Positions 5,477 through 20,173 of a DNA stretch of 39,254 nt are shown in pieces (within the stretch, counting starts at the first letter, position 1; the number at the start of each line of letters is the position of its first letter). The notes under the pieces were generated by a model. The model searched no databases. It had not been told where the DNA came from and was given only the letters and a program-made list of their open reading frames with translations. The stretch is from a virus, in UHGV virus genome UHGV-0143367; one strand, written 5' to 3'. The translations under genes and the position numbers were made by a program.

Positions 5477-8448
5477 GCCCCCTTGATTGCGTTCAGGATC
5501 ATGCCGTTATTCGATAACTCACGGTCCAGCACGCTATAGCAGACCTGCTTAATCTGGGATAGCGCCTCGAGGCTTAGAGCTTCATCACTGGTTTTTCCCT
5601 GGTCTTTGGATTGCTGGGTTGCCGCGCCCTGCTTAATCACCTGCAGCGGGATATTCACCATGACGCGGATATTCCGATTATCGCTGCCGGCATCTTCATT
5701 ACTGGAAGGCCGGGCTATGCTACCACCGACCAAACCGCCGTCTGCATATCCGCTGCCATAGGTCAGCTGGTTCAGGAAGTTCAGCATGCCAGGCTTTTGC
5801 ACGACGTTCTGAGGAACTACCCATTCGCCTTTATGGACCACGCCGGCAACATCGTGCCTACCACCATCACCTGTATAACCACCATCTGCAAAACCAAAAA
5901 ATGACCCAAACCCAGCCGCGTTAATGCCAGCCTTTACAGTCTGCGCAACTAACATTCTGGATAGCATCTGACCGATATCATTGATGACAGATACAGCAAA
6001 TGACTTAAAATCTGCTTTCCCTTTTGAAGCGAACGTCCAGACCATATCACTCATACCATTCATAGTATTTTTCGTGACATCGTAAACTTGCGAATTAACA
6101 TCCTCAGCATCTGTAAACCAATCACTCATAGCCCGTTTAAAACCGGATGCGGCATCTTCCTGTGCTCTAACCTTTTCCTTCGCTGAGCGGCGCACTATAT
6201 TGATCTGCTTCTGCTCCTCATTATCCAGAATGGCCGTCTGTTTTTGGTACTCCCTCGATGCGCTATCCGTAATTTGCTTATCCAATTCCTCACGCAGTTT
6301 TGAGAACCTTTCACGCACTTGCTGCTCAGCAACCAGCTGTTCATACGCATCTGAAGTCATCGTCATCTGAGCAACCCGGTTGCTGTACTCCTGCTGCAAC
6401 TGGATTGTTGAGCGGTACAGCTCCTGATTCTGCTCTTGCATCTGCAGGCCGATTTTCCGCTGCGCGTTGGCTCGGTCCAGACTGGCGTTGATCTGCAGCT
6501 GGTTACGAAGCTCAGTTTCCTGCGCCAGCAGACTGCGCTGGCCAGCGGTCAGGATGCGCTTTTCTTTCAGATCGGCAACTTCCTGATTGAACTGCAGCAG
6601 CTTACGCTCGCTGTTCGTCAGTTCTTCCGTCTGGTCGTTCTGCGTACGCAGCACCGTCTCTTCCTGCTTCAGCTCCTGCAGGCGGCGAGTGGCAGCATCA
6701 TCGCTGTAGGCTTTCTCACGCGCTTTTTTCTGCTCGGCGTACATCTTGTTCACGCCAGCCATCGCCTGCGTGTACTCCGCCGTGCCTTTCGTATAGTTCG
6801 CGTTAACCAGTGCGATAGCATCAGCGCGCTCTTTTTCGCGCGATACGCCCGCTTTCATCAGGCCAGAAAGGGTGTTTTCATCCTTCAGGCGCTTCGTCAG
6901 CTCTTCGCGCTCTTTCTTCCGCTGCTGGTAGAGTTTTTCAGCTTCTTCACGCTGTTTGATGGCGGGGTCTTCGGTTGGCGTCAGATCGACATTGGCACCA
7001 GCGGCCATCGCCTGGGCGGTAGCCATATGCGCATCGCCCATGGTCTTAAAAGCATCAGCCACAAACCCTTTCAGGGACTTCCACGCGCCTTCCAGCACGC
7101 CGACCTGGCTTTCCTGCTCTTTGAGTTTCTGGGAAACGTCATCCATGGCCGCCTGCTGCAGCAGCGCGGTAGCCTCAGTCGTTTTCCCCTGGCGGTTCAG
7201 GGTAACAATCTGATCGACCATACTGCTGTTCAGCAAAATCCCCTGATCGGTCAGCTTTTGCAGCGCGTTCAGCGGGTCGCCGCTGAGACTGGAAAGCAGC
7301 GTAACCAGGTCATCAGAACTCTGGCCAATTTCTTCCATACGGGTGCCAAGCCCCGCCACCTGATCCAGAATATCGCCGCCGAACCCGGCGCCGACAGCGG
7401 CAGTGACCGACTTAACCGCACCGGCGGTGTCGCCCAGGCGGGAAACCAGGTTCTGCAGGTACATCACGTTCATCACGGACTGCTGCCCGGACTTCTGCAA
7501 TGCCTTATTGAATCCGTCGATCTCCGCCTGGCTGTGCGAGAATGCGGTATAAATCGCGGTACCGACGCCGGCAACCGCCATCACGGCAAGGCCGACAGGA
7601 CCGCCGACCATCGCCAGCGCACCACGCAATAACCCGGCACTGGCCGCAGCCGCACGCTGGCCGAGCGAGAGTTCCTGGCTGACAACCGCCAGATTACGGG
7701 TCGATGTGGCCAGCTGCTGCTTACCGTTGGATTCGGCAATATCGGCGGCCAGCACGGCTTTTGTCGCTTCTGCCAGGCTGCCTTTCCCTTTGGCTTCCGC
7801 CAGGTTGGCTTCATTAATCACACGCGAGTTTTTAACGTGCTCTTCCTGATAATCAACCGTCAGCCCGAACTGTTTGTTTACCTCGGCCTGTTTGGCGTAA
7901 TACTCATCGAGTGCGAATGCACGTTCACGATCGGCCTTCGCCGCCTCAATAGTTTTCACAGCGGCGTTCTGTTTGGCGATGGCCTCTTCGCGGAGGCTCC
8001 TGGCGTTCTCAATGACGCCGCGCGCCGCATCAACCTGCGCCGCAGTGAACTCAATCTGGGCCTGTCGCTGGTTCTTCAGGCCATTCACGCTGTTTGATAG
8101 CGCGGTGCTCATACCCTCGCTGAGCGAAGTAACCAGCGCGTTTGCTATAGAACTACCGGCAACGTTACTACCGGCAGAGATGCTGGCCAGCAGGCCGCGC
8201 ATCTCATCAAGCCCGGTCAGACGCTTATCAACCGTGCGGCCAAGTTTGTTAAAATCAGCATCGAGACCGGTGATCCCTTTGCTGACTCCTTCGTATGACT
8301 GGCGGGTATTTTTGGCATCCGCCTGCGCCTTTCTGTTGAACTGTTGCGCCCCACTGTCAGCCGACCGCATCGCATCAGCAAACTGCGATTTGAAGCTGGC
8401 CGAGTTCAGGTGAAGCGCAACAGCCAACGATGCAACATCAGCAGCCAT
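5473..8448 (-). CDS. H: Tail tape measure protein
   Basis: 991 aa, coiled-coil and Ala/Gln-rich low complexity, hydrophobic central segment, Gly-rich C-terminal region; position after G/G-T. Confidence 0.9.
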   Translation of the reverse strand: MAADVASLAVALHLNSASFKSQFADAMRSADSGAQQFNRKAQADAKNTRQSYEGVSKGITGLDADFNKLGRTVDKRLTGLDEMRGLLASISAGSNVAGSSIANALVTSLSEGMSTALSNSVNGLKNQRQAQIEFTAAQVDAARGVIENARSLREEAIAKQNAAVKTIEAAKADRERAFALDEYYAKQAEVNKQFGLTVDYQEEHVKNSRVINEANLAEAKGKGSLAEATKAVLAADIAESNGKQQLATSTRNLAVVSQELSLGQRAAAASAGLLRGALAMVGGPVGLAVMAVAGVGTAIYTAFSHSQAEIDGFNKALQKSGQQSVMNVMYLQNLVSRLGDTAGAVKSVTAAVGAGFGGDILDQVAGLGTRMEEIGQSSDDLVTLLSSLSGDPLNALQKLTDQGILLNSSMVDQIVTLNRQGKTTEATALLQQAAMDDVSQKLKEQESQVGVLEGAWKSLKGFVADAFKTMGDAHMATAQAMAAGANVDLTPTEDPAIKQREEAEKLYQQRKKEREELTKRLKDENTLSGLMKAGVSREKERADAIALVNANYTKGTAEYTQAMAGVNKMYAEQKKAREKAYSDDAATRRLQELKQEETVLRTQNDQTEELTNSERKLLQFNQEVADLKEKRILTAGQRSLLAQETELRNQLQINASLDRANAQRKIGLQMQEQNQELYRSTIQLQQEYSNRVAQMTMTSDAYEQLVAEQQVRERFSKLREELDKQITDSASREYQKQTAILDNEEQKQINIVRRSAKEKVRAQEDAASGFKRAMSDWFTDAEDVNSQVYDVTKNTMNGMSDMVWTFASKGKADFKSFAVSVINDIGQMLSRMLVAQTVKAGINAAGFGSFFGFADGGYTGDGGRHDVAGVVHKGEWVVPQNVVQKPGMLNFLNQLTYGSGYADGGLVGGSIARPSSNEDAGSDNRNIRVMVNIPLQVIKQGAATQQSKDQGKTSDEALSLEALSQIKQVCYSVLDRELSNNGMILNAIKGA

Positions 8449-14990: not shown

Positions 14991-15175
14991 TAGTTGTTCC
15001 CCTTGTTAGCTGACTGACCCAGATATTTAGCCCACATACATGAGCAAAAAACACAGAGAACGCCGCCGGTGATTAGTCCCGCTGCGGGAGAAAATAGCCA
15101 TGCGCCGGCAGAGATCATGACGGCGCCGGCCAGACCAATCAGAAAAATCAGAACCGAGATCGCTGCTGTTAACAT
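14990..15175 (-). CDS. Small hydrophobic protein between terL and portal
   Basis: 61 aa, two predicted transmembrane stretches, tightly packed between flanking genes. Confidence 0.3.
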   Translation of the reverse strand: MLTAAISVLIFLIGLAGAVMISAGAWLFSPAAGLITGGVLCVFCSCMWAKYLGQSANKGNN

Positions 15176-16890
15176 GCCACGTCTTCCTCGTCATAAATGG
15201 ATTTGCCGCCCCCGCCTCCGCCGTTCTGCAGCGCGCGCGTAAGGGCGTTAAACAACGCTGTCGCGCCGTCGATTTTTGATTGTTTATCGCCTTTTGTCGG
15301 GCGAACGACGTCATCGCTGCCGGGAATGAACTTCCCGATAACGTTGCTGATACACCAGGTGAGAATCGGATTGCCGTCGTGGTGGAATCTCCCGCCAGCG
15401 AGCGCCGCTTCCAGCTCGTTCATCGCCGGAGACATGTTCTGGAAGTTCTGCGTGATCTCCACACATTCAACCCCGTCATCCTCCAGTAAATGGCGCAGCG
15501 CTGTCGCGCCGGCGGGGTCGATGTCCGCCTCTTTAATCCTGATTTCCTGCCGCAGATCGAGGATGCTGGCGTGAATCTCACGATAATCAGCCTCGGCGCC
15601 ATCGGTCGCCTCCAGTACCTTCATCGTGACGAATTTCCGGTACCGGTCAGCAGCTTTAAGGTGCTTAGGATCGGTGCTGTGAACTGTATCTTCCGGGACC
15701 CAAAATTTGGGGGCCACGGAGTAGTAGTGCTTCTTGCCCTCAATTTCCCGCGTGAATAAAGGTATGCAGGCGTTCATATCGAGCTTTTTCGCGAGATCCA
15801 GCCCCAGATTGGCATCGTCATCAGTAAAGTCCGACAGCTTCAGCGTCTTATCTTCGGCTTCTTTCCACTGCTCCATATTGAAGAACGCTGCGGCACCGGA
15901 AACCCACATATTCAGACGCTTTGTCTTAAATGCGTTCGTCATACGCGGGACTTTCTTTGCCACTTCCAGCAGCTCGACCAGATCGCTGTATTTCACCGAG
16001 ACATCGAGGTTCGGGTTGGCTTTAATCAGGTTTGCCGGGTCAGTCCAGTCGTCCCCCTGATCCAGCTCGTAAATCATGCCAAACAGTCGATCGTTCGGGG
16101 TGATTTCGTCCAGCGCCTCTTTGACCTCTTTGTCCTTGTCGTAACAAGGTGATTCGAGGTCAGTACCGGCAGTGGTAATAATCAGCGTCAACGGCTGAGA
16201 ACGGGCGCCCATGCCCGTCGTCATCGCCTGGTAAAGACGGTCTGTTTTGTGCTCGTGGTATTCGTCAATGATGGCGCAGCTGGGTGAGTCACCATCACCA
16301 GGGTCGCCGACCACCGGCGCAAATATGGAGCCGTCCGGACGCGTCAGCTTCTCGGTCCAGACTGAAACATCAAACCGCCGGCGCAGCGCTGGCAGCATTT
16401 TTGCTATTTGTTGGGCTGGGGTGAAGACCTTCTTGGCCTGCCTCATCTGCGTGGCGCCACAGTAGACTTCTGCGCTATTTTCGCCATCAGCGCAGAACAT
16501 ATACATACCAATGCCCGCAGAGATAAACGATTTACCGTTTTTACGGGCAACGCGGATGTAGGCTTCCTTAAAGCGTCGTTTTTTGTTGGATTTCGTAACC
16601 CAGCCGAAGATCGAGCAGAAAGCGAAGGCTTGCCACATTTCCAGCTTCAGTTTCTGCCCTTTGAGGTCCCCACTGGAGTGGGGTAGCAGCTGAACAAATC
16701 GACATGCACGTTCAGCTAAATCCCGGTCAAATCGGTACGGATAATCCTTATCCAGTGATTTTTTCAGGTCGTCAAAATGGCGCTGGCAGGCCAGCCGGAT
16801 GTATTTACAGGCGACTATGCTGCCGCTGAGCACATCACGCGCATACTGATTCGCCAGATTGACGTTCGGGTATGCGGCCATATAACTCAT
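15169..16890 (-). CDS. Terminase large subunit
   Basis: ORF-track ORF starts at a TTG directly after the terS stop; more probable start is the ATG for MSYMAAYPNV at ~16890. Size and position typical of TerL. Confidence 0.85.
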   Translation of the reverse strand: MSYMAAYPNVNLANQYARDVLSGSIVACKYIRLACQRHFDDLKKSLDKDYPYRFDRDLAERACRFVQLLPHSSGDLKGQKLKLEMWQAFAFCSIFGWVTKSNKKRRFKEAYIRVARKNGKSFISAGIGMYMFCADGENSAEVYCGATQMRQAKKVFTPAQQIAKMLPALRRRFDVSVWTEKLTRPDGSIFAPVVGDPGDGDSPSCAIIDEYHEHKTDRLYQAMTTGMGARSQPLTLIITTAGTDLESPCYDKDKEVKEALDEITPNDRLFGMIYELDQGDDWTDPANLIKANPNLDVSVKYSDLVELLEVAKKVPRMTNAFKTKRLNMWVSGAAAFFNMEQWKEAEDKTLKLSDFTDDDANLGLDLAKKLDMNACIPLFTREIEGKKHYYSVAPKFWVPEDTVHSTDPKHLKAADRYRKFVTMKVLEATDGAEADYREIHASILDLRQEIRIKEADIDPAGATALRHLLEDDGVECVEITQNFQNMSPAMNELEAALAGGRFHHDGNPILTWCISNVIGKFIPGSDDVVRPTKGDKQSKIDGATALFNALTRALQNGGGGGGKSIYDEEDVAC

Positions 16891-16900
16891 CCATAAAAAA

Positions 16901-16916
16901 TGGGACCGTGGTCCCA
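16901..16916. repeat. SopB-box-like inverted repeat TGGGACC-GT-GGTCCCA at the terS/terL junction
   Basis: Direct sequence match; overlaps the terS stop codon. Confidence 0.65.
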
Positions 16917-16917
16917 A

Positions 16918-17376
16918 TTAAAAATCGTCGAAATCGTTTCCCGCTTCTCTGCCACCTTGCCCCGGATTAGCAACTCTGACCCGGCTGTTCGGGTCCAGTT
17001 TCAGAACGACGCTCAGCCTGATGAGCTGCGAAATGTACTTATCGCGCGCTTTCACCGCGGCGCCCAGCTTCTGGCCGCCGGCAGCAGTTTCATCGCCTAT
17101 CCCGTCGCCTTTGATTTCCTGATTCGCGTCGTACAGCAGCTGCACGGTGTTGCAGTACTCCATCAGCAGGTAGCAATCTTCCATCTCAAAATTTCCACGG
17201 TCGATCATCAGCCGGCAGGTCCGTTTCCAGGCATCGACTGCCATATCACCCAGCAATTCCTCTGGCGGTGAAACGGCGCGAGTTACGGAACTGACCTGCG
17301 TGCCGGCATTGTTCGGTTTCCGGCCTCCGCCAGGAGAGCGCACTCCTGTCGCCATTCGTGCACCTCCATGCATCAA
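16918..17376 (-). CDS. Terminase small subunit
   Basis: 152 aa immediately upstream of terL; Gly-rich N-terminus. Confidence 0.7.
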   Translation of the reverse strand: MMHGGARMATGVRSPGGGRKPNNAGTQVSSVTRAVSPPEELLGDMAVDAWKRTCRLMIDRGNFEMEDCYLLMEYCNTVQLLYDANQEIKGDGIGDETAAGGQKLGAAVKARDKYISQLIRLSVVLKLDPNSRVRVANPGQGGREAGNDFDDF

Positions 17377-18171
17377 TTGCGTTTTCTGTTACGTTAAAAA
17401 TCACCAAAAAAAAGATCTTATTTCCCACGCGTAAAAATCGACTTGAAGCGGCAGTCCTCAAACACGAAAGGGGTTAGGGATTTTCCCCCCCCCCCCTACC
17501 CCCCGGCTGGCGGCGGTTCTGTAGCCGGCCTGCCGGGGTCCGCTGCTCAGGGCGCGCGGGTCGGGCAATGGGTGTGTGGGCCAGGCGCTGATCTTCTGGT
17601 TGCCGTCGGTGCGGCTGCAATTCACCACAACTGGAAGCGCCCTGGCCTCACACCGCATGCTGAGGCGTGGTGGTTGTCCATCGGGTTCAGGACGCTTCCA
17701 TGTTATGAGCTGGCAATAAAAATCCCGGCGTACCGGGATTCGCTCTGCTGACCCTTGCAGTGGGAGACTGGATCACCTCCTTCATTGCGCTTATGGGTGG
17801 CGCACTCATCACAAGGAGAAGGGCACCAGAAAGCTGTGGCGGGTTATCGCCACTCTTTCCCTGAAGGGTGGCCCTTAGAGCTATGCGCCAACGTTCTGAT
17901 GCCCTTATCGCTGTGATGCCGCCACACTTTCGCAGTGGCCGCGCCCATGCCGTGGGTGGCGCTTAGGGTTCGTCTCTGCTCCCCCGCAGCTGTAACCGGT
18001 GCGCTTATCGGCGTTCGCGCTGCCTTACCGGTGCTTCTTTTCTTATTAACCCTCACCAGATGCAAAGCTGGCTCTCTACTCGGAGACTAGGGGGCCGGTT
18101 ACTACCCAGCCATCGCCGCCGTTCGGCTGCTGCGGTCTACCCGCTTTAATGCTTCATCTTCTTTCCCTCCG
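17377..18171. other. Non-coding GC-rich region upstream of terS; putative cos packaging region containing a C12 homopolymer
   Basis: About 800 bp with no convincing ORF; HNH-terS-terL arrangement typical of cos packaging; C12 run at 17485-17496 followed by TACCCCCC. Confidence 0.4.
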
Positions 18172-18372
18172 TCAGTCCAGATAGAAATTGTCATTCAGCC
18201 GGCGACGATTGCCGTTGCTGGCGTTATGGGGGCAGGCATCCGATGAATGCCCAGCGCCACCGCAATATGAGCAGCGTAGGTTGGCACGGCGGGAAGAACC
18301 GCCCCACGTTTTAGGGCAGTTCGCTACGGTATGCAGCTGCGAGCCGCAGTAGGTACAACGGATATATGCCAT
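18172..18372 (-). CDS. Small protein with two tandem CCHC zinc knuckles (CX2CX4HX4C)
   Basis: 66 aa; CTYCGSQLHTVANC and CSYCGGAGHSSDAC both fit C-X2-C-X4-H-X4-C. Confidence 0.5.
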   Translation of the reverse strand: MAYIRCTYCGSQLHTVANCPKTWGGSSRRANLRCSYCGGAGHSSDACPHNASNGNRRRLNDNFYLD

Positions 18373-18734
18373 CAGTTAAACCGCTCCTTAGCTGTCTTCC
18401 GGCGGTGGCATGGCCAGCACAACGATTCGAGGTTGCTATCGTCATCGGTGCCGCCGTGGGCTTTCGGGATGATGTGATCCACACTTTCAGCTTTCATGCC
18501 TATGCCCCGGCGCCGGCAGTCCTGGCAGAGATATTTATCCCGCATCAGAATGCGATCGCGGCGTATCTCCCATGGTCTTCCATACCCGCGATCCTGTCGG
18601 CTCTTCCCTGGCTGGTAATTACGCCAGCCATCACCGGCGTGCTGCTGGCGATGGCTATCGCAATATCCTGATGGGTCGTTAGTGGCGGTAGAGCATCCTT
18701 TGTGCTTACAAGGGCGCTTAGCGCGGGCTGGCAT
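18372..18734 (-). CDS. HNH endonuclease (terminase-associated)
   Basis: C-terminal CQDCRRRG...VDHIIPKAHGGTDDDSNLESLCWPCHRRK HNH motif; start trimmed to internal Met (MPARAKRP) because the longer ORF overlaps the upstream gene. Confidence 0.8.
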   Translation of the reverse strand: MPARAKRPCKHKGCSTATNDPSGYCDSHRQQHAGDGWRNYQPGKSRQDRGYGRPWEIRRDRILMRDKYLCQDCRRRGIGMKAESVDHIIPKAHGGTDDDSNLESLCWPCHRRKTAKERFN

Positions 18735-19698
18735 TATCGTTTCCCAGCGCGTTGAAAGCAGATCGTACCGCACGAGCCAGGGCAATAGCCGCTTCTTCGG
18801 TTCGACCCCCTGGTACGTTGGGGAGAGTAGCGGCGAGCACTGCTGATAATGTTTCTTTCGCAATATCGTGGCAGGAAAGACCCAATGATGCTGTATGTGC
18901 AAGTGGTGGTAATGCTTTCGATACCATGGTGCTGCTATCACCCCAATTACTGATGATGATTCGCCCACCGCCAGCCAGATTGACAACCATGTCCTTATCG
19001 CTCACCTCAAATGAAATGCCATGAATGTTACTATCGGCACCAGATGCGGACGGGGCATCGTTTACGTTAATGCTCATAGATGCTGTATAGGTTAATGGCG
19101 TTATCTCACCGCAGCTCGTATGTTGCTTAAAGATTTGAGAGGATACTCGGGCATTTGCTATAGCCTGAGCCAGAACGTTCACAGCATCCCCGATACATGG
19201 GCGACCACTTTTCCAAGCATCGTCAAGAATCTTACCTACATCGATGTTGCTATTACTGGTCTTCGGCTTCAGCGTTTCTGCCGCGTGGATAGTTTCCGAA
19301 ATAAATGCGTTATTGATGAAGACTTCACCGTTTTCAATCTTAAATTTTGGTGCAACAAAAGAGGTCATTAAGCACATGTCGTTACTACCAGCCATTGCAT
19401 TGAGGTACTCTTCTGCATTGCTGGATGACACACCTTCGATCCAGTCACTTCCCATCCAATCACGAACTGCACCATTTTTATCAATCGGTCGTAAGCGAAT
19501 CTGCAGGCGTTCGCCACCCTTAAGGCCACCGATTAACGCTCCAACTAATGGCCATGCGATAACCTGTCTTTTCAAACGTCCATCGGCGTTGAGATACTGC
19601 ATTTCAAGCCGCGAATGCTCGCCGCTATTTTCTGGCCACTGCCATTCAACCTGGATACCCCAGACTCGGGGTGACGTTAATACTTGCGGAAGTTGCAT
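18718..19698 (-). CDS. Hypothetical 326-aa protein, possible N-terminal FN3/Ig-like fold
   Basis: AAGGA Shine-Dalgarno before ATG; lower GC than the structural block; no recognisable catalytic motif. Confidence 0.45.
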   Translation of the reverse strand: MQLPQVLTSPRVWGIQVEWQWPENSGEHSRLEMQYLNADGRLKRQVIAWPLVGALIGGLKGGERLQIRLRPIDKNGAVRDWMGSDWIEGVSSSNAEEYLNAMAGSNDMCLMTSFVAPKFKIENGEVFINNAFISETIHAAETLKPKTSNSNIDVGKILDDAWKSGRPCIGDAVNVLAQAIANARVSSQIFKQHTSCGEITPLTYTASMSINVNDAPSASGADSNIHGISFEVSDKDMVVNLAGGGRIIISNWGDSSTMVSKALPPLAHTASLGLSCHDIAKETLSAVLAATLPNVPGGRTEEAAIALARAVRSAFNALGNDNASPR

Positions 19699-19810
19699 TG
19701 AATTTTCCTTTTAGACGTGAGCCTGTCGCACGGCAAAGCCGCCAAGAGTTAACGGATTACCCAGGCTCACTACTGAAAGACTCTCTTTGATGTGCGCGTG
19801 CGATGCGCAT

Positions 19811-19833
19811 AAAAAAACCACCCGAAGGTGGTT
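19811..19833 (-). terminator. Rho-independent terminator (AACCACC-ttcg-GGTGGTT + U7)
   Basis: Perfect 7-bp stem followed by a 7-nt U run on the minus strand. Confidence 0.6.
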
Positions 19834-19839
19834 CATTTC

Positions 19840-19859
19840 ATTGGGACCATGGTCCCAAT
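19840..19859. repeat. SopB-box-like palindrome ATTGGGACCATGGTCCCAAT
   Basis: Perfect 20-bp palindrome, same sequence as 4669-4688 and 32501-32520. Confidence 0.7.
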
Positions 19860-20173
19860 CAGGCAGCCTGTTCGCTGGCCACCGGTGGGTAATGCAGTGT
19901 GCTGTAGACCGGCAGCTCCATTTTGTACGCGTAGTGATACTCAGCGGTCGCGCCAGATGACGCCTGCCAGCCTGGCAGCATCAAAATGGCATCCGCACAG
20001 CGCAGCATCGCAAAGCAGATGTCCATATACTCGCGCGGCTCCATGCCTGCCGGTAGCGTGGCGGGATTAAGGACGACATGCCCATGCTTAGCCAGCCGCT
20101 CAGCTTCTTTGTTGAACGCCTCGCGGTTGAAATTCTCACTGCCTGTCATGGGGCCAGCGATGTAGACTTTCAT
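19859..20173 (-). CDS. DUF4406 / nucleoside 2-deoxyribosyltransferase-like protein
   Basis: 104 aa starting MKVYIAGPMTG, the characteristic N-terminal motif of this fold family as recalled. Confidence 0.5.
   Translation of the reverse strand: MKVYIAGPMTGSENFNREAFNKEAERLAKHGHVVLNPATLPAGMEPREYMDICFAMLRCADAILMLPGWQASSGATAEYHYAYKMELPVYSTLHYPPVASEQAA

What the first reader, a model, noticed from the sequence alone, without database searches (positions are those of the whole stretch)
18172..18372. Tandem CCHC zinc-knuckle mini-protein next to HNH and the cos region
A 66-aa ORF with two exact C-X2-C-X4-H-X4-C modules, the spacing of nucleic-acid-binding zinc knuckles, directly upstream of the HNH endonuclease and ~800 bp non-coding cos-like region. 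It could be an accessory factor for cos recognition or cleavage, or an RNA/ssDNA-binding regulator.
Basis: seen in the sequence. Interest (0 to 1): 0.45.

Follow-up and report, generated by a model that had tools for sequence, protein, structure and literature searches.

The report
Phage zinc-knuckle mini-protein beside cos
A real, strongly conserved 66-residue phage protein made of two retrovirus-style zinc knuckles sits between the HNH nuclease gene and the DNA-packaging site in one group of enterobacterial phages; it is probably a non-essential nucleic-acid-binding helper of packaging, but its function is untested.

Summary
Window 18172-18372 (minus strand) encodes a 66-aa protein with two exact C-X2-C-X4-H-X4-C modules, the only two in the window's six frames. 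It is a real gene. Its ATG overlaps the HNH stop codon, all eight zinc ligands are invariant in 36 diverse homologues, and dN/dS is about 0.07-0.10.

It belongs to a large, unnamed family of 58-75-aa stand-alone two-knuckle phage proteins, which includes phiKO2 Gp64. There is no dedicated Pfam or PHROG family and no paper.

In close relatives the gene order is very stable. HNH abuts it in 55 of 78 loci, and a large terminase lies within 2.2 kb downstream in 68 of 71. It is kept in 179 plasmids against 187 carrying the related small terminase.

It is not a core packaging component. HK97 has a homologous cos and an HNH but no CCHC gene. A Yersinia prophage has the gene without HNH. Distant relatives sit in mixed contexts.

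Best reading (about 0.35): a late, HNH-coupled nucleic-acid-binding accessory of cos cleavage or packaging.

The "800 bp cos-like region" is mostly not cos. Only about 105 bp are. Directly after the CCHC stop lies a roughly 250-nt structured RNA with strong covariation, over 100 copies in phages and plasmids, and no Rfam match.

The parts
18172..18372 (-). 66-aa tandem CCHC zinc-knuckle mini-protein (homologue of phiKO2 Gp64)
   Evidence: ORF and translation. Two exact CX2CX4HX4C modules, unique in the window. Pfam zf-CCHC 22.0 bits vs 20.8. Eight ligands invariant in 36 homologues. dN/dS about 0.07-0.10.
18372..18734 (-). HNH endonuclease, 120 aa from ATG 18734. It has an N-terminal C-x4-C...C-x2-H zinc motif and an HNH [CxxC]2 domain. 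Its stop codon overlaps the CCHC start by one base.
   Evidence: Pfam HNH 1.9e-15. PHROG 144 HNH endonuclease 8e-40. 83% identical to phiKO2 Gp60. Overlap read from the sequence.
17921..18168 (-). Conserved structured RNA element that starts 4 nt after the CCHC stop. It has a 5' Shine-Dalgarno sequence (18168-18163) and a 3-codon mini-ORF, followed by a multi-helix fold.
   Evidence: nhmmer hit 1.7e-58 at these coordinates. 94-sequence alignment A7. 94.5% of cells paired against 29-37% in slid controls, and 31 of 49 pairs with compensatory changes. No Rfam match.
18146..18157 (-). Mini-ORF ATG AAG CAT TAA (M-K-H-stop) at the 5' end of the RNA element
   Evidence: Read from the sequence. 90 of 94 distinct copies have ATG plus 0-6 further codons and a stop within the first 60 nt, most commonly 3 codons in all, and 16 are start-stop. 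A GGAGG-like Shine-Dalgarno precedes the ATG in the consensus and in the copies read.
17716..17740 (-). Terminator-like hairpin AATCCCGG-TACG-CCGGGATT followed by a T-run. It is preceded at 17782-17770 by AAGGAGGTGATCC, a perfect complement of the 16S rRNA 3' end (the 16S sequence is from my own knowledge), with no ORF behind it.
   Evidence: Read from the sequence and present in the MFE fold. Not reported by the simple terminator scan. This is an inference.
17400..17504 (.). cos region: G-run GGGGGGTAGGGGGGGGGGGG (17504-17485). The predicted genome end is ...GGACTGCCGCTTCA (17444) | AGTCGATTTTT, followed by an A/T tract.
   Evidence: 83% identical over 103 nt to the joined right and left ends of the linear phiKO2 genome. 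The same architecture is seen in HK97 ends and in most CCHC loci.
16918..17355 (-). Small terminase subunit (P27 family). The likely start is ATG 17355.
   Evidence: Pfam Terminase_4 7.2e-13. 79% identical to phiKO2 Gp1 from residue 8 of the mechanical ORF.
15169..16917 (-). Large terminase subunit (start codon not refined)
   Evidence: Pfam TerL_ATPase 1.3e-32 and TerL_nuclease 3.6e-34.

Best explanation
The ORF encodes a late-expressed, zinc-stabilised, basic mini-protein (7 Arg plus 1 Lys against 3 Asp). Its two CCHC knuckles bind nucleic acid. It acts as a dispensable accessory subunit of the HNH/terminase cos-cleavage and packaging machinery in phiKO2/HK97-type phages.

Shown:
- The gene is real and under strong purifying selection.
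- All eight zinc ligands and an aromatic residue in each knuckle (Y8, Y36) are conserved.
- It is translationally coupled to HNH.
- In close relatives it is almost always the last gene before cos/terS.

Inferred:
- Coupling lets it be made together with HNH.
- It binds DNA at or near cos. Candidate targets are distorted or single-stranded DNA such as the melted cleavage site or the 3' cohesive end. As a "mini-specificity" or clamp subunit it would raise the efficiency or accuracy of nicking or end handling.
- It is not needed for the basic reaction, because HK97 manages without it.
For: Gene reality:
- 1-nt stop/start overlap with HNH, and an AAGGAG 10 nt upstream.
- dN/dS median 0.10 against 67 homologues, and 0.066 over 646 pairs, with synonymous sites near saturation.
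- C6, C9, H14, C19, C34, C37, H42 and C47 are invariant in 36 sequences down to 41% identity.

Knuckle type:
- Pfam zf-CCHC is above its cut-off.
- A profile search of PDB sequences returns only CCHC nucleic-acid binders: Air2 3.5e-6, TUT4, RSV and HIV NC.

Synteny in 78 non-redundant close loci:
- HNH abuts in 55 and lies within 2 kb upstream in 17 more.
- TerL lies within 2.2 kb downstream in 68 of 71 loci with enough sequence.
- Across these loci HNH identity falls to 44-63% and TerL identity to 34-37%, while CCHC stays at 71-85%.

Retention:
- 179 plasmids carry it, against 187 with the related terS.

Distant family members:
- Some abut portal, TerL or head-morphogenesis genes.

Analogy:
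- Small zinc-binding proteins next to cos-associated HNH nickases recur in Firmicutes phages, and one is naturally fused to its HNH (Xu & Gupta 2013, PMC3592412).
- I confirmed the phi105 example as the last gene before cos.
Against: - Absent from HK97, which has a homologous cos and an HNH.
- Present in only 10 phage records, against 435 with a homologue of this HNH.
- A Yersinia ruckeri prophage has it before a lambda-type GpA terminase with no HNH.
- Enterobacter prophages have it right after the lysis genes, 3.7 kb and five genes away from terS.
- In phiKO2 and its plasmid relatives two or three genes separate it from HNH.
- In 68 distant loci no neighbour family dominates. One copy sits in a replication module.
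- No HNH-CCHC fusion among the 13 multi-domain or extended hits I read from the 150 best representative hits.
- The G-run in cos is also present in HK97, so it is not a CCHC-specific site.
- The AlphaFold model (pLDDT 81) has no significant structural neighbour.
- Zinc and nucleic-acid binding are untested.
Confidence: 0.35

Rival explanations
1. It is an accessory ("moron-like") gene unrelated to packaging. On this view a small phage protein targets a host protein or nucleic acid (host takeover or counter-defence) and simply resides in the variable stretch between the lysis genes and cos, travelling with the neighbouring DNA.
For: - Patchy distribution: 10 of 50,697 phage records.
- Absent from HK97.
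- Located right after lysis genes in Enterobacter prophages, after KilA-N in Yersinia and after SNF2 in a replication module.
- Heterogeneous neighbours in distant loci.
- The same pre-cos interval also holds variable cargo: Gp61, Gp62 and Gp63, the RNA element, an Abi_alpha gene.
Against: - No promoter-like site was found in 17200-19900, so there is no sign of a promoter of its own.
- Start/stop overlap with HNH in 55 of 78 loci.
- Kept in about 95% of phiKO2-like plasmids.
- More conserved than the flanking HNH and TerL, which is unusual for cargo.
Confidence: 0.25
2. It is an RNA-binding regulator or chaperone of late transcripts. It might act on the terS leader or on the structured RNA element that lies next to it in this window, as eukaryotic and retroviral CCHC knuckles act on RNA.
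For: - The closest sequence relatives are RNA binders: Air2, Lin28-like, TUT4, NC.
- In this window the structured RNA starts 4 nt after its stop codon. In phiKO2 and L084 the same RNA lies 0.5-0.9 kb upstream of it.
Against: - Most CCHC loci have no copy of that RNA. nhmmer found it only in the window, phiKO2 and L084 among the CCHC loci.
- The RNA occurs in over 100 loci that were fetched independently of the CCHC gene, and I did not test those loci for the gene.
- So the two are independent modules. No RNA target can be named.
Confidence: 0.15
3. It is a virion-associated DNA-end or internal protein. On this view a nucleocapsid-like basic protein is packaged with, or bound to, the genome end. 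It would protect the cohesive end or help ejection and re-annealing in the next host.
For: - Basic, NC-sized, with two knuckles.
- It is the last gene before the genome end.
- Some distant homologues directly follow portal, head-morphogenesis or tail-sheath genes.
Against: - No virion proteomics evidence was found.
- HK97-type virions are well studied and have no such component, to my knowledge.
- Position alone does not indicate packaging of the protein.
Confidence: 0.1
4. It is a dedicated inhibitor or chaperone of the HNH nuclease that limits non-specific nicking until the terminase complex assembles.
For: Translational coupling and adjacency to HNH in 71% of close loci.
Against: - Present without any HNH in Yersinia.
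- Separated from HNH by 2-5 genes in phiKO2, Klebsiella plasmids and Enterobacter.
- Most HNH-bearing phages lack it.
Confidence: 0.05

Closest known systems
Zinc-ribbon proteins (ZRP) adjacent to cos-associated HNH nicking endonucleases: "Group 4" of Xu & Gupta, Nucleic Acids Res 2013 (PMC3592412)
   Same: A small zinc-motif protein encoded immediately beside a phage HNH endonuclease, next to cos, terS, terL and portal. The function is untested; the authors proposed a mini-specificity subunit or a regulator. The window's HNH also has the N-terminal zinc motif of their Group 1. The phi105 example is likewise the last gene before the cohesive end.
   Different: That is a positional class, not a homologous family. 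The phi105 ZRP shows no similarity to the CCHC profile (hhalign probability 0.5%). Their motifs are CxxC/CxxxC/HxxC ribbons, not C-X2-C-X4-H-X4-C knuckles. Their examples are from Firmicutes phages.
zf-CCHC zinc knuckle (Pfam PF00098), as in retroviral nucleocapsid proteins (HIV-1 NCp7, RSV NC), Air2, Lin28 and CNBP
   Same: Exact C-X2-C-X4-H-X4-C spacing, twice. A glycine follows the second Cys. The linker is basic. The overall size (66 aa) is close to NC proteins (55-61 aa). The profile hits these proteins and nothing else in the PDB.
   Different: It is a stand-alone phage protein, not part of Gag. The linker is 14 residues and carries a family-specific P-K-T-W-G-G-S motif. The conserved aromatic is at Cys1+2 (C-T-Y-C). 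From my own knowledge, it is at Cys1+1 in NC. The tail is an acidic/hydrophobic D-x-F-x-x-D. The similarity is confined to an 18-residue motif, so common descent is not shown.
HK97-type HNH-dependent cos packaging module (gp74 HNH + gp1 TerS + gp2 TerL; Kala et al. 2014; PMC11331095)
   Same: The same module surrounds the ORF: HNH, homologous cos (G-run, GACCGCCGCC-type end, A/T tract), P27-type or related TerS, and TerL.
   Different: HK97 itself has no CCHC gene. Its HNH-cos interval holds an 83-aa Gp61-like ORF instead.
Klebsiella phage phiKO2 Gp64 (YP_006644.1)
   Same: A 77% identical orthologue, 66 aa, and the last gene before the right cohesive end, 70 nt away.
   Different: Annotated only as "Gp64". 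In phiKO2 it follows Gp63 rather than HNH, and the RNA element lies upstream of Gp63 rather than downstream of the CCHC gene.

Membership tests
zf-CCHC zinc knuckle (PF00098) | C-X2-C-X4-H-X4-C ligand spacing | tested here: met
   Two exact copies, at residues 6-19 and 34-47. They are unique in the window.
zf-CCHC zinc knuckle (PF00098) | Score at or above Pfam's gathering threshold | tested here: met
   22.0 bits against a cut-off of 20.8, with the best stretch at residues 33-49. The margin is small. The related models AIR2-like_ZnK4 and Lin-28A-like fall below their cut-offs.
zf-CCHC zinc knuckle (PF00098) | Ligand residues conserved across homologues | tested here: met
   All eight are invariant in 36 sequences. 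A few distant relatives have C-X2-C-X3-H-X4-C in knuckle 1.
zf-CCHC zinc knuckle (PF00098) | Binds one Zn2+ per knuckle and binds single-stranded nucleic acid | not testable with these tools
   Needs metal analysis and binding assays.
Retroviral nucleocapsid protein | Encoded as the C-terminal part of a Gag polyprotein of a retroelement | tested here: not met
   It is a stand-alone ORF in a tailed-phage late operon between HNH and terS. Therefore it is not a member. The resemblance is functional and architectural only.
Retroviral nucleocapsid protein | Aromatic residue directly after the first Cys of each knuckle, which stacks on guanine | tested here: inconclusive
   A conserved aromatic (Y8, Y36; F in a few) lies at Cys1+2, not Cys1+1. 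The NC position is from my own knowledge of HIV-1 NCp7 (F16, W37).
ZRP adjacent to cos HNH endonuclease (Xu & Gupta Group 4) | Small protein with zinc-binding motifs encoded immediately upstream or downstream of a phage HNH endonuclease near terS/terL | tested here: met
   It abuts HNH with a 1-nt overlap, and terS and terL follow. The same holds in 55 of 78 related loci.
ZRP adjacent to cos HNH endonuclease (Xu & Gupta Group 4) | Sequence homology to a described ZRP | tested here: not met
   hhalign of the CCHC profile against phi105 PHI105_00260 gives probability 0.5%. Only one described ZRP was tested. The class is positional, so this does not exclude membership in it.
ZRP adjacent to cos HNH endonuclease (Xu & Gupta Group 4) | Physical or functional interaction with the HNH enzyme | not testable with these tools
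   Untested even for the published examples, except for one natural fusion. No HNH-CCHC fusion was seen among the 13 multi-domain or extended hits I read.
Core component of the HK97-type packaging machine | Present wherever the HNH + cos + terminase module is present | tested here: not met
   HK97 lacks it. 435 phage records have the HNH homologue and 10 have the CCHC gene.

The most novel reading that the evidence does not exclude
Tailed phages carry a widespread family of nucleocapsid-like tandem zinc-knuckle nucleic-acid chaperones. These would work at the genome-packaging site by recognising or handling single-stranded or distorted cos DNA: the melted nick site or the 3' cohesive end. That would be a dsDNA-phage counterpart, convergent or ancestral, of the way retroviral NC knuckles recognise a packaging signal.
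Probability: 0.12. Interest if true: 0.75.

Novelty: new variant of a known kind. Interest (0 to 1): 0.5.

Why it matters
If the protein does act at cos, it would add a fourth, optional player to the HNH-TerS-TerL cos-cleavage reaction, which is now being described structurally for HK97. It would also give a function to the recurring but unexplained "small zinc protein next to the packaging HNH".

It would show that CCHC knuckles, usually thought of as eukaryotic and retroviral RNA-binding modules, form a sizeable phage family. At least 107 clusters at 50% identity scored below E = 1e-10, and most of the 150 best hits are stand-alone two-knuckle proteins of 58-75 aa.

On the practical side, the gene is missed by annotation in most records, so it is a gap in phage and plasmid-prophage annotation.

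Separately, the structured RNA next to it may be a new cis-acting element of antitermination-controlled operons. It may prove to be the more important find.

Tried and rejected
1. Rfam scans of the window and of eight related loci, at gathering and E-value thresholds, gave nothing for the non-coding stretch.
2. I asked whether the G-run in cos is a CCHC-specific binding site. Rejected: HK97 has the same G-run without the gene.
3. I looked for a Rosetta-stone HNH-CCHC fusion among the 150 best representative hits. I read 13 multi-domain or extended ones and found none. The long hits I read are eukaryote-like multi-knuckle proteins or knuckle-repeat proteins, some carrying bacterial SH3 or YARHG domains.
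4. Homology to the phi105 zinc protein beside HNH: none.
5. A Foldseek search of the AlphaFold model against the PDB found no significant match. The best was the CCHC region of T. brucei RNase D, E = 0.99.
6. The search for related loci with the broad alignment A2 failed because no stretch was conserved enough. It worked with A1 and A3.
7. I considered the classical HK022-type put RNA as the identity of the RNA element. HK022 and HK639 are not among the 18 phage records that hold the element, and it is about 250 nt rather than about 70 nt. So it is not that family, although a similar role is not excluded.
8. Literature searches for phage CCHC knuckles and for the RNA element found nothing specific.
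9. Megablast of the 1.5-kb region against E. coli genomes found no match.
10. My crude gene calling around the RNA element is noisy. Strand and distance statistics should not be relied on.

Full report
**1. What is there**

The finding's coordinates hold a minus-strand ORF, 18372->18172. It encodes MAYIRCTYCGSQLHTVANCPKTWGGSSRRANLRCSYCGGAGHSSDACPHNASNGNRRRLNDNFYLD. Both C-X2-C-X4-H-X4-C modules are exact. A regular-expression scan of all six frames of the 39-kb window finds this motif only twice, both times in this ORF. In 200 shuffles the mean was 0.08 matches and there were never two. Pfam's zf-CCHC model scores just above its cut-off, 22.0 against 20.8 bits.

On the transcribed strand the gene order is:
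- a 326-aa ORF (19698-18718);
- HNH endonuclease (18734-18372);
- the CCHC gene;
- about 800 nt without a credible ORF;
- P27-type small terminase (17355-16918);
- large terminase (16917-15169).

The HNH stop codon and the CCHC start codon overlap as TGATG, and AAGGAG lies 10 nt upstream. Functionally the gene is the distal partner of a translationally coupled HNH-CCHC pair.

**2. It is a real, selected gene in a large unnamed family**

- A word-indexed search found 26 clusters, with 51-81% identity over the aligned stretch. All are annotated as hypothetical. They come from Klebsiella, Yersinia, Salmonella, Enterobacter and others.
- A profile search of 1.84 billion representatives found 375 hits, 107 of them below 1e-10. 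Most are 58-75-aa stand-alone proteins of the form MRCTYCGS..HT...CPKTW.GS..R..LRC.YCG...H...ACPKTW.GNAARAW....V.D.F[VI]KD.
- In an alignment of 36 diverse members all eight ligands are invariant. Y8, G10, P20, Y36 and G38 are nearly so, and the 14-residue inter-knuckle spacing is fixed.
- Against 67 distinct orthologous DNA sequences, non-synonymous divergence is 0.17 and synonymous divergence 0.71. Median dN/dS is 0.10, and 0.066 over 646 moderately diverged pairs.
- A profile search of all PDB sequences returns only CCHC knuckle proteins: Air2, TUT4/7, RSV/HIV/MoMLV nucleocapsids, Lin28.
- No dedicated Pfam or PHROG family exists, and no paper was found.
- An AlphaFold model built on the alignment is fairly confident (pLDDT 81) but has no significant Foldseek neighbour.

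**3. Where the gene sits**

The window is a relative, about 74-77% identical in DNA, of phiKO2-like linear plasmid-prophages of Klebsiella. phiKO2 Gp64 is the orthologue (77% identity). It is the last gene of the linear genome, 70 nt from the right cohesive end, and terS starts 63 nt into the left end.

I fetched 86 loci with close homologues from IMG/VR and GTDB and mapped reference proteins onto them. Among 78 non-redundant loci:
- an HNH gene ends within 15 nt of the CCHC start in 55;
- an HNH gene lies within 2 kb upstream in 17 more;
- no HNH was found upstream in 6;
- a large terminase follows within 2.2 kb in 68 of the 71 loci with enough sequence.

Across these loci HNH identity to the window drops to 44-63% and TerL identity to 34-37%, while CCHC stays at 71-85%. 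In PLSDB, 179 plasmids carry the gene (177 full length) against 187 with the related terS. The gene is unannotated in the 12 sample rows listed. In this lineage it behaves as a core gene.

**4. Why it is not a core packaging component**

- HK97 is the experimentally defined HNH-dependent cos phage. Its cos region is clearly homologous: AT-rich repeats, a G-run, and a ...GACCGCCGCC end. It has an HNH but no CCHC gene. The HNH-cos interval holds an 83-aa Gp61-like ORF.
- Of 50,697 phage records, 435 contain a homologue of this HNH. Only 10 contain the CCHC gene.
- A Yersinia ruckeri prophage has the gene as the last ORF before a lambda-type terS/GpA terminase, with no HNH.
- Enterobacter prophages have it directly after the lysis cassette, five genes before terS.
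- One distant copy follows SNF2 and DNA polymerase genes.
- For 68 non-redundant distant loci no neighbouring family dominates. HNH, terminase, portal and head-morphogenesis genes are the most frequent recognisable neighbours, but each appears in only a few loci. Several copies do directly abut portal, TerL, head-morphogenesis or tail-sheath genes.
- No HNH-CCHC fusion turned up among the 13 multi-domain or extended hits I read.

**5. Mechanism**

The best-supported reading has four parts.
- The protein is made late, together with HNH.
- It folds around two zinc ions and binds nucleic acid.
- It acts as an optional helper of cos cleavage or end handling.
- The first point rests on the stop/start overlap. 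The other three are inference.

The closest published precedent is Xu & Gupta (2013, PMC3592412). They noted that many cos-associated HNH nickases are flanked by a small "zinc-ribbon protein". One such protein is naturally fused to its HNH. They proposed a mini-specificity subunit or a regulator, and did not test either. I checked their phi105 example. It too is the last gene before the cohesive end, but it is not homologous to the CCHC family. The arrangement therefore recurs with unrelated zinc proteins, which modestly favours a functional link with HNH and cos.

For HK97, the small terminase binds 15-29 bp downstream of the cut, and gp74 stimulates cleavage (PMC11331095). The conserved DNA upstream of the cut, including the G-run, has no assigned protein in the passages I read. 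It cannot be CCHC-specific, because HK97 has it without the gene.

I put this explanation at 0.35. The rivals and their weights are:
- unrelated accessory cargo, 0.25;
- RNA-binding regulator, 0.15;
- virion- or end-associated protein, 0.10;
- HNH inhibitor, 0.05.

**6. The "cos-like 800 bp"**

Only about 17504-17400 aligns with the joined ends of phiKO2, 83% over 103 nt. The predicted end is at ...GGACTGCCGCTTCA(17444). Relative to phiKO2 and the Klebsiella plasmids, about 660 nt (18171-17510) is extra.

Its first 248 nt (18168-17921) match non-coding DNA in these records:
- phiKO2 (between Gp62 and a terminator);
- Edwardsiella phage EPP-1;
- Klebsiella phages RothC and RothD;
- mEp213;
- plasmids of Pectobacterium, Rahnella, Pantoea, Providencia and Edwardsiella.

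A 16-mer from the element hit at least 120 viral contigs. nhmmer found 102 full-length copies, and 94 distinct ones were aligned.

On an RNAalifold structure derived from that same alignment, the pair counts are:
- 94.5% of cells are paired, against 29-37% when partners are slid;
- 31 of 49 pairs show compensatory changes;
- the covariation score is 0.278, against 0.03-0.05 for slid controls;
- none of 500 shuffles reaches the observed values.

Deriving the structure from the alignment inflates the contrast with the slid controls somewhat. Frequent G-U pairs show that the folded strand is the one co-oriented with the genes.

Ninety of the 94 copies have an ATG, 0-6 further codons and a stop within the first 60 nt (57 have three codons in all; 16 are start-stop). 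A GGAGG-like Shine-Dalgarno precedes the ATG in the consensus and in the copies read.

Recognisable neighbours are as follows:
- upstream: CI-type repressors (9 of 75), Q antiterminators (about 15) and Rz spanins (about 7);
- downstream: N-like antiterminators (4), holins (6) and terS (2).

These are the leader and junction positions of antitermination-controlled operons. The element has no Rfam 15 match. It is unannotated in nearly all listed RefSeq E. coli and phage records; a few rows show only a "hypothetical protein" over it. It is not in HK022 or HK639. I regard it as a candidate new cis-acting RNA, independent of the CCHC gene. Among the CCHC loci, nhmmer found it only in the window, phiKO2 and L084.

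**7. Verdict**

- The thing is a new variant of a known kind. It is an uncharacterised tandem CCHC-knuckle family filling the "small zinc protein beside the packaging HNH" slot.
- Interest is moderate. It is raised somewhat by the size of the family, the retrovirus-like architecture and the neighbouring RNA element.

Noticed in passing
window 17921-18168 (minus strand); also L001 3057-3306, L005 2482-2726, L006 2395-2626, L007 2392-2623, L008 2380-2642, L084 5081-5317 and about 100 further loci: A structured RNA element of about 250 nt with a 5' Shine-Dalgarno sequence plus a 1-3-codon mini-ORF. Covariation is strong: 31 of 49 pairs are compensatory, and 94.5% of cells are paired against about 33% in slid controls. 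It has over 100 copies in enterobacterial phages and plasmids. It typically sits after cI/PL, after Q and its terminator, or between lysis genes and terS. There is no Rfam 15 match, and it is unannotated in nearly all listed RefSeq and GenBank records. It may be a cis-acting antitermination or anti-Rho leader RNA (inference).
   Followed up: yes
window 17770-17782 and 17716-17740 (minus strand): AAGGAGGTGATCC is a 13-nt perfect complement of the 16S rRNA 3' end (the 16S sequence is from my own knowledge). No start codon or ORF follows it. About 30 nt further on lies a terminator-like hairpin with a T-run. The simple terminator scan did not report the hairpin.
   Followed up: no
window 17577-17625: A 49-nt stretch inside the non-coding insertion is 86-88% identical to unannotated DNA of lambda-type and Stx-converting phages, near the N / early-left region.
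   Followed up: no
window 19694-19834: The intergenic stretch after the DUF4406/nucleoside deoxyribosyltransferase-like gene is 91-94% identical to mEp390, HK639 (annotated there as a terminator) and Salmonella phage FSL SP-016. It includes a hairpin at 19815-19834 that was scored as terminator-like on both strands. This is far more conserved than the flanking genes.
   Followed up: no
L033 about 6210-6420: One related viral contig carries a second, divergent two-knuckle CCHC ORF directly after the first: VSCSRCGSSRHKISRC...CTRCHRSGHTAKSC. This is a tandem pair of paralogues.
   Followed up: partly
L309 2498-2785 (Bacillus phage phi105): A non-homologous small protein with Cys/His motifs occupies the same slot: immediately after the HNH gene and 27 nt before the annotated cohesive end. 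It is a positional analogue of the CCHC gene.
   Followed up: yes
L003 7733-8941 (K. variicola plasmid p5_KVTMDU) and NZ_CP061066/CP061057: Some phiKO2-like plasmid-prophages carry a gene annotated as an RNA-guided endonuclease of the TnpB family a few kb upstream of the HNH-cos region.
   Followed up: no
window 18718-19698 (minus strand): The 326-aa ORF just upstream of HNH has an N-terminal 100-140 residues that match PHROG tail-protein and central-tail-fibre-J families, and phrog_13555 of unknown function. This is an odd place for a tail-like domain. It overlaps the HNH start by 17 nt.
   Followed up: no
PLSDB and GenBank records listed: The CCHC gene is unannotated in most phage and plasmid records that contain it. 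Features under the match are "none" in all 12 plasmid rows listed and in most phage rows. This is a systematic small-ORF annotation gap.
   Followed up: partly
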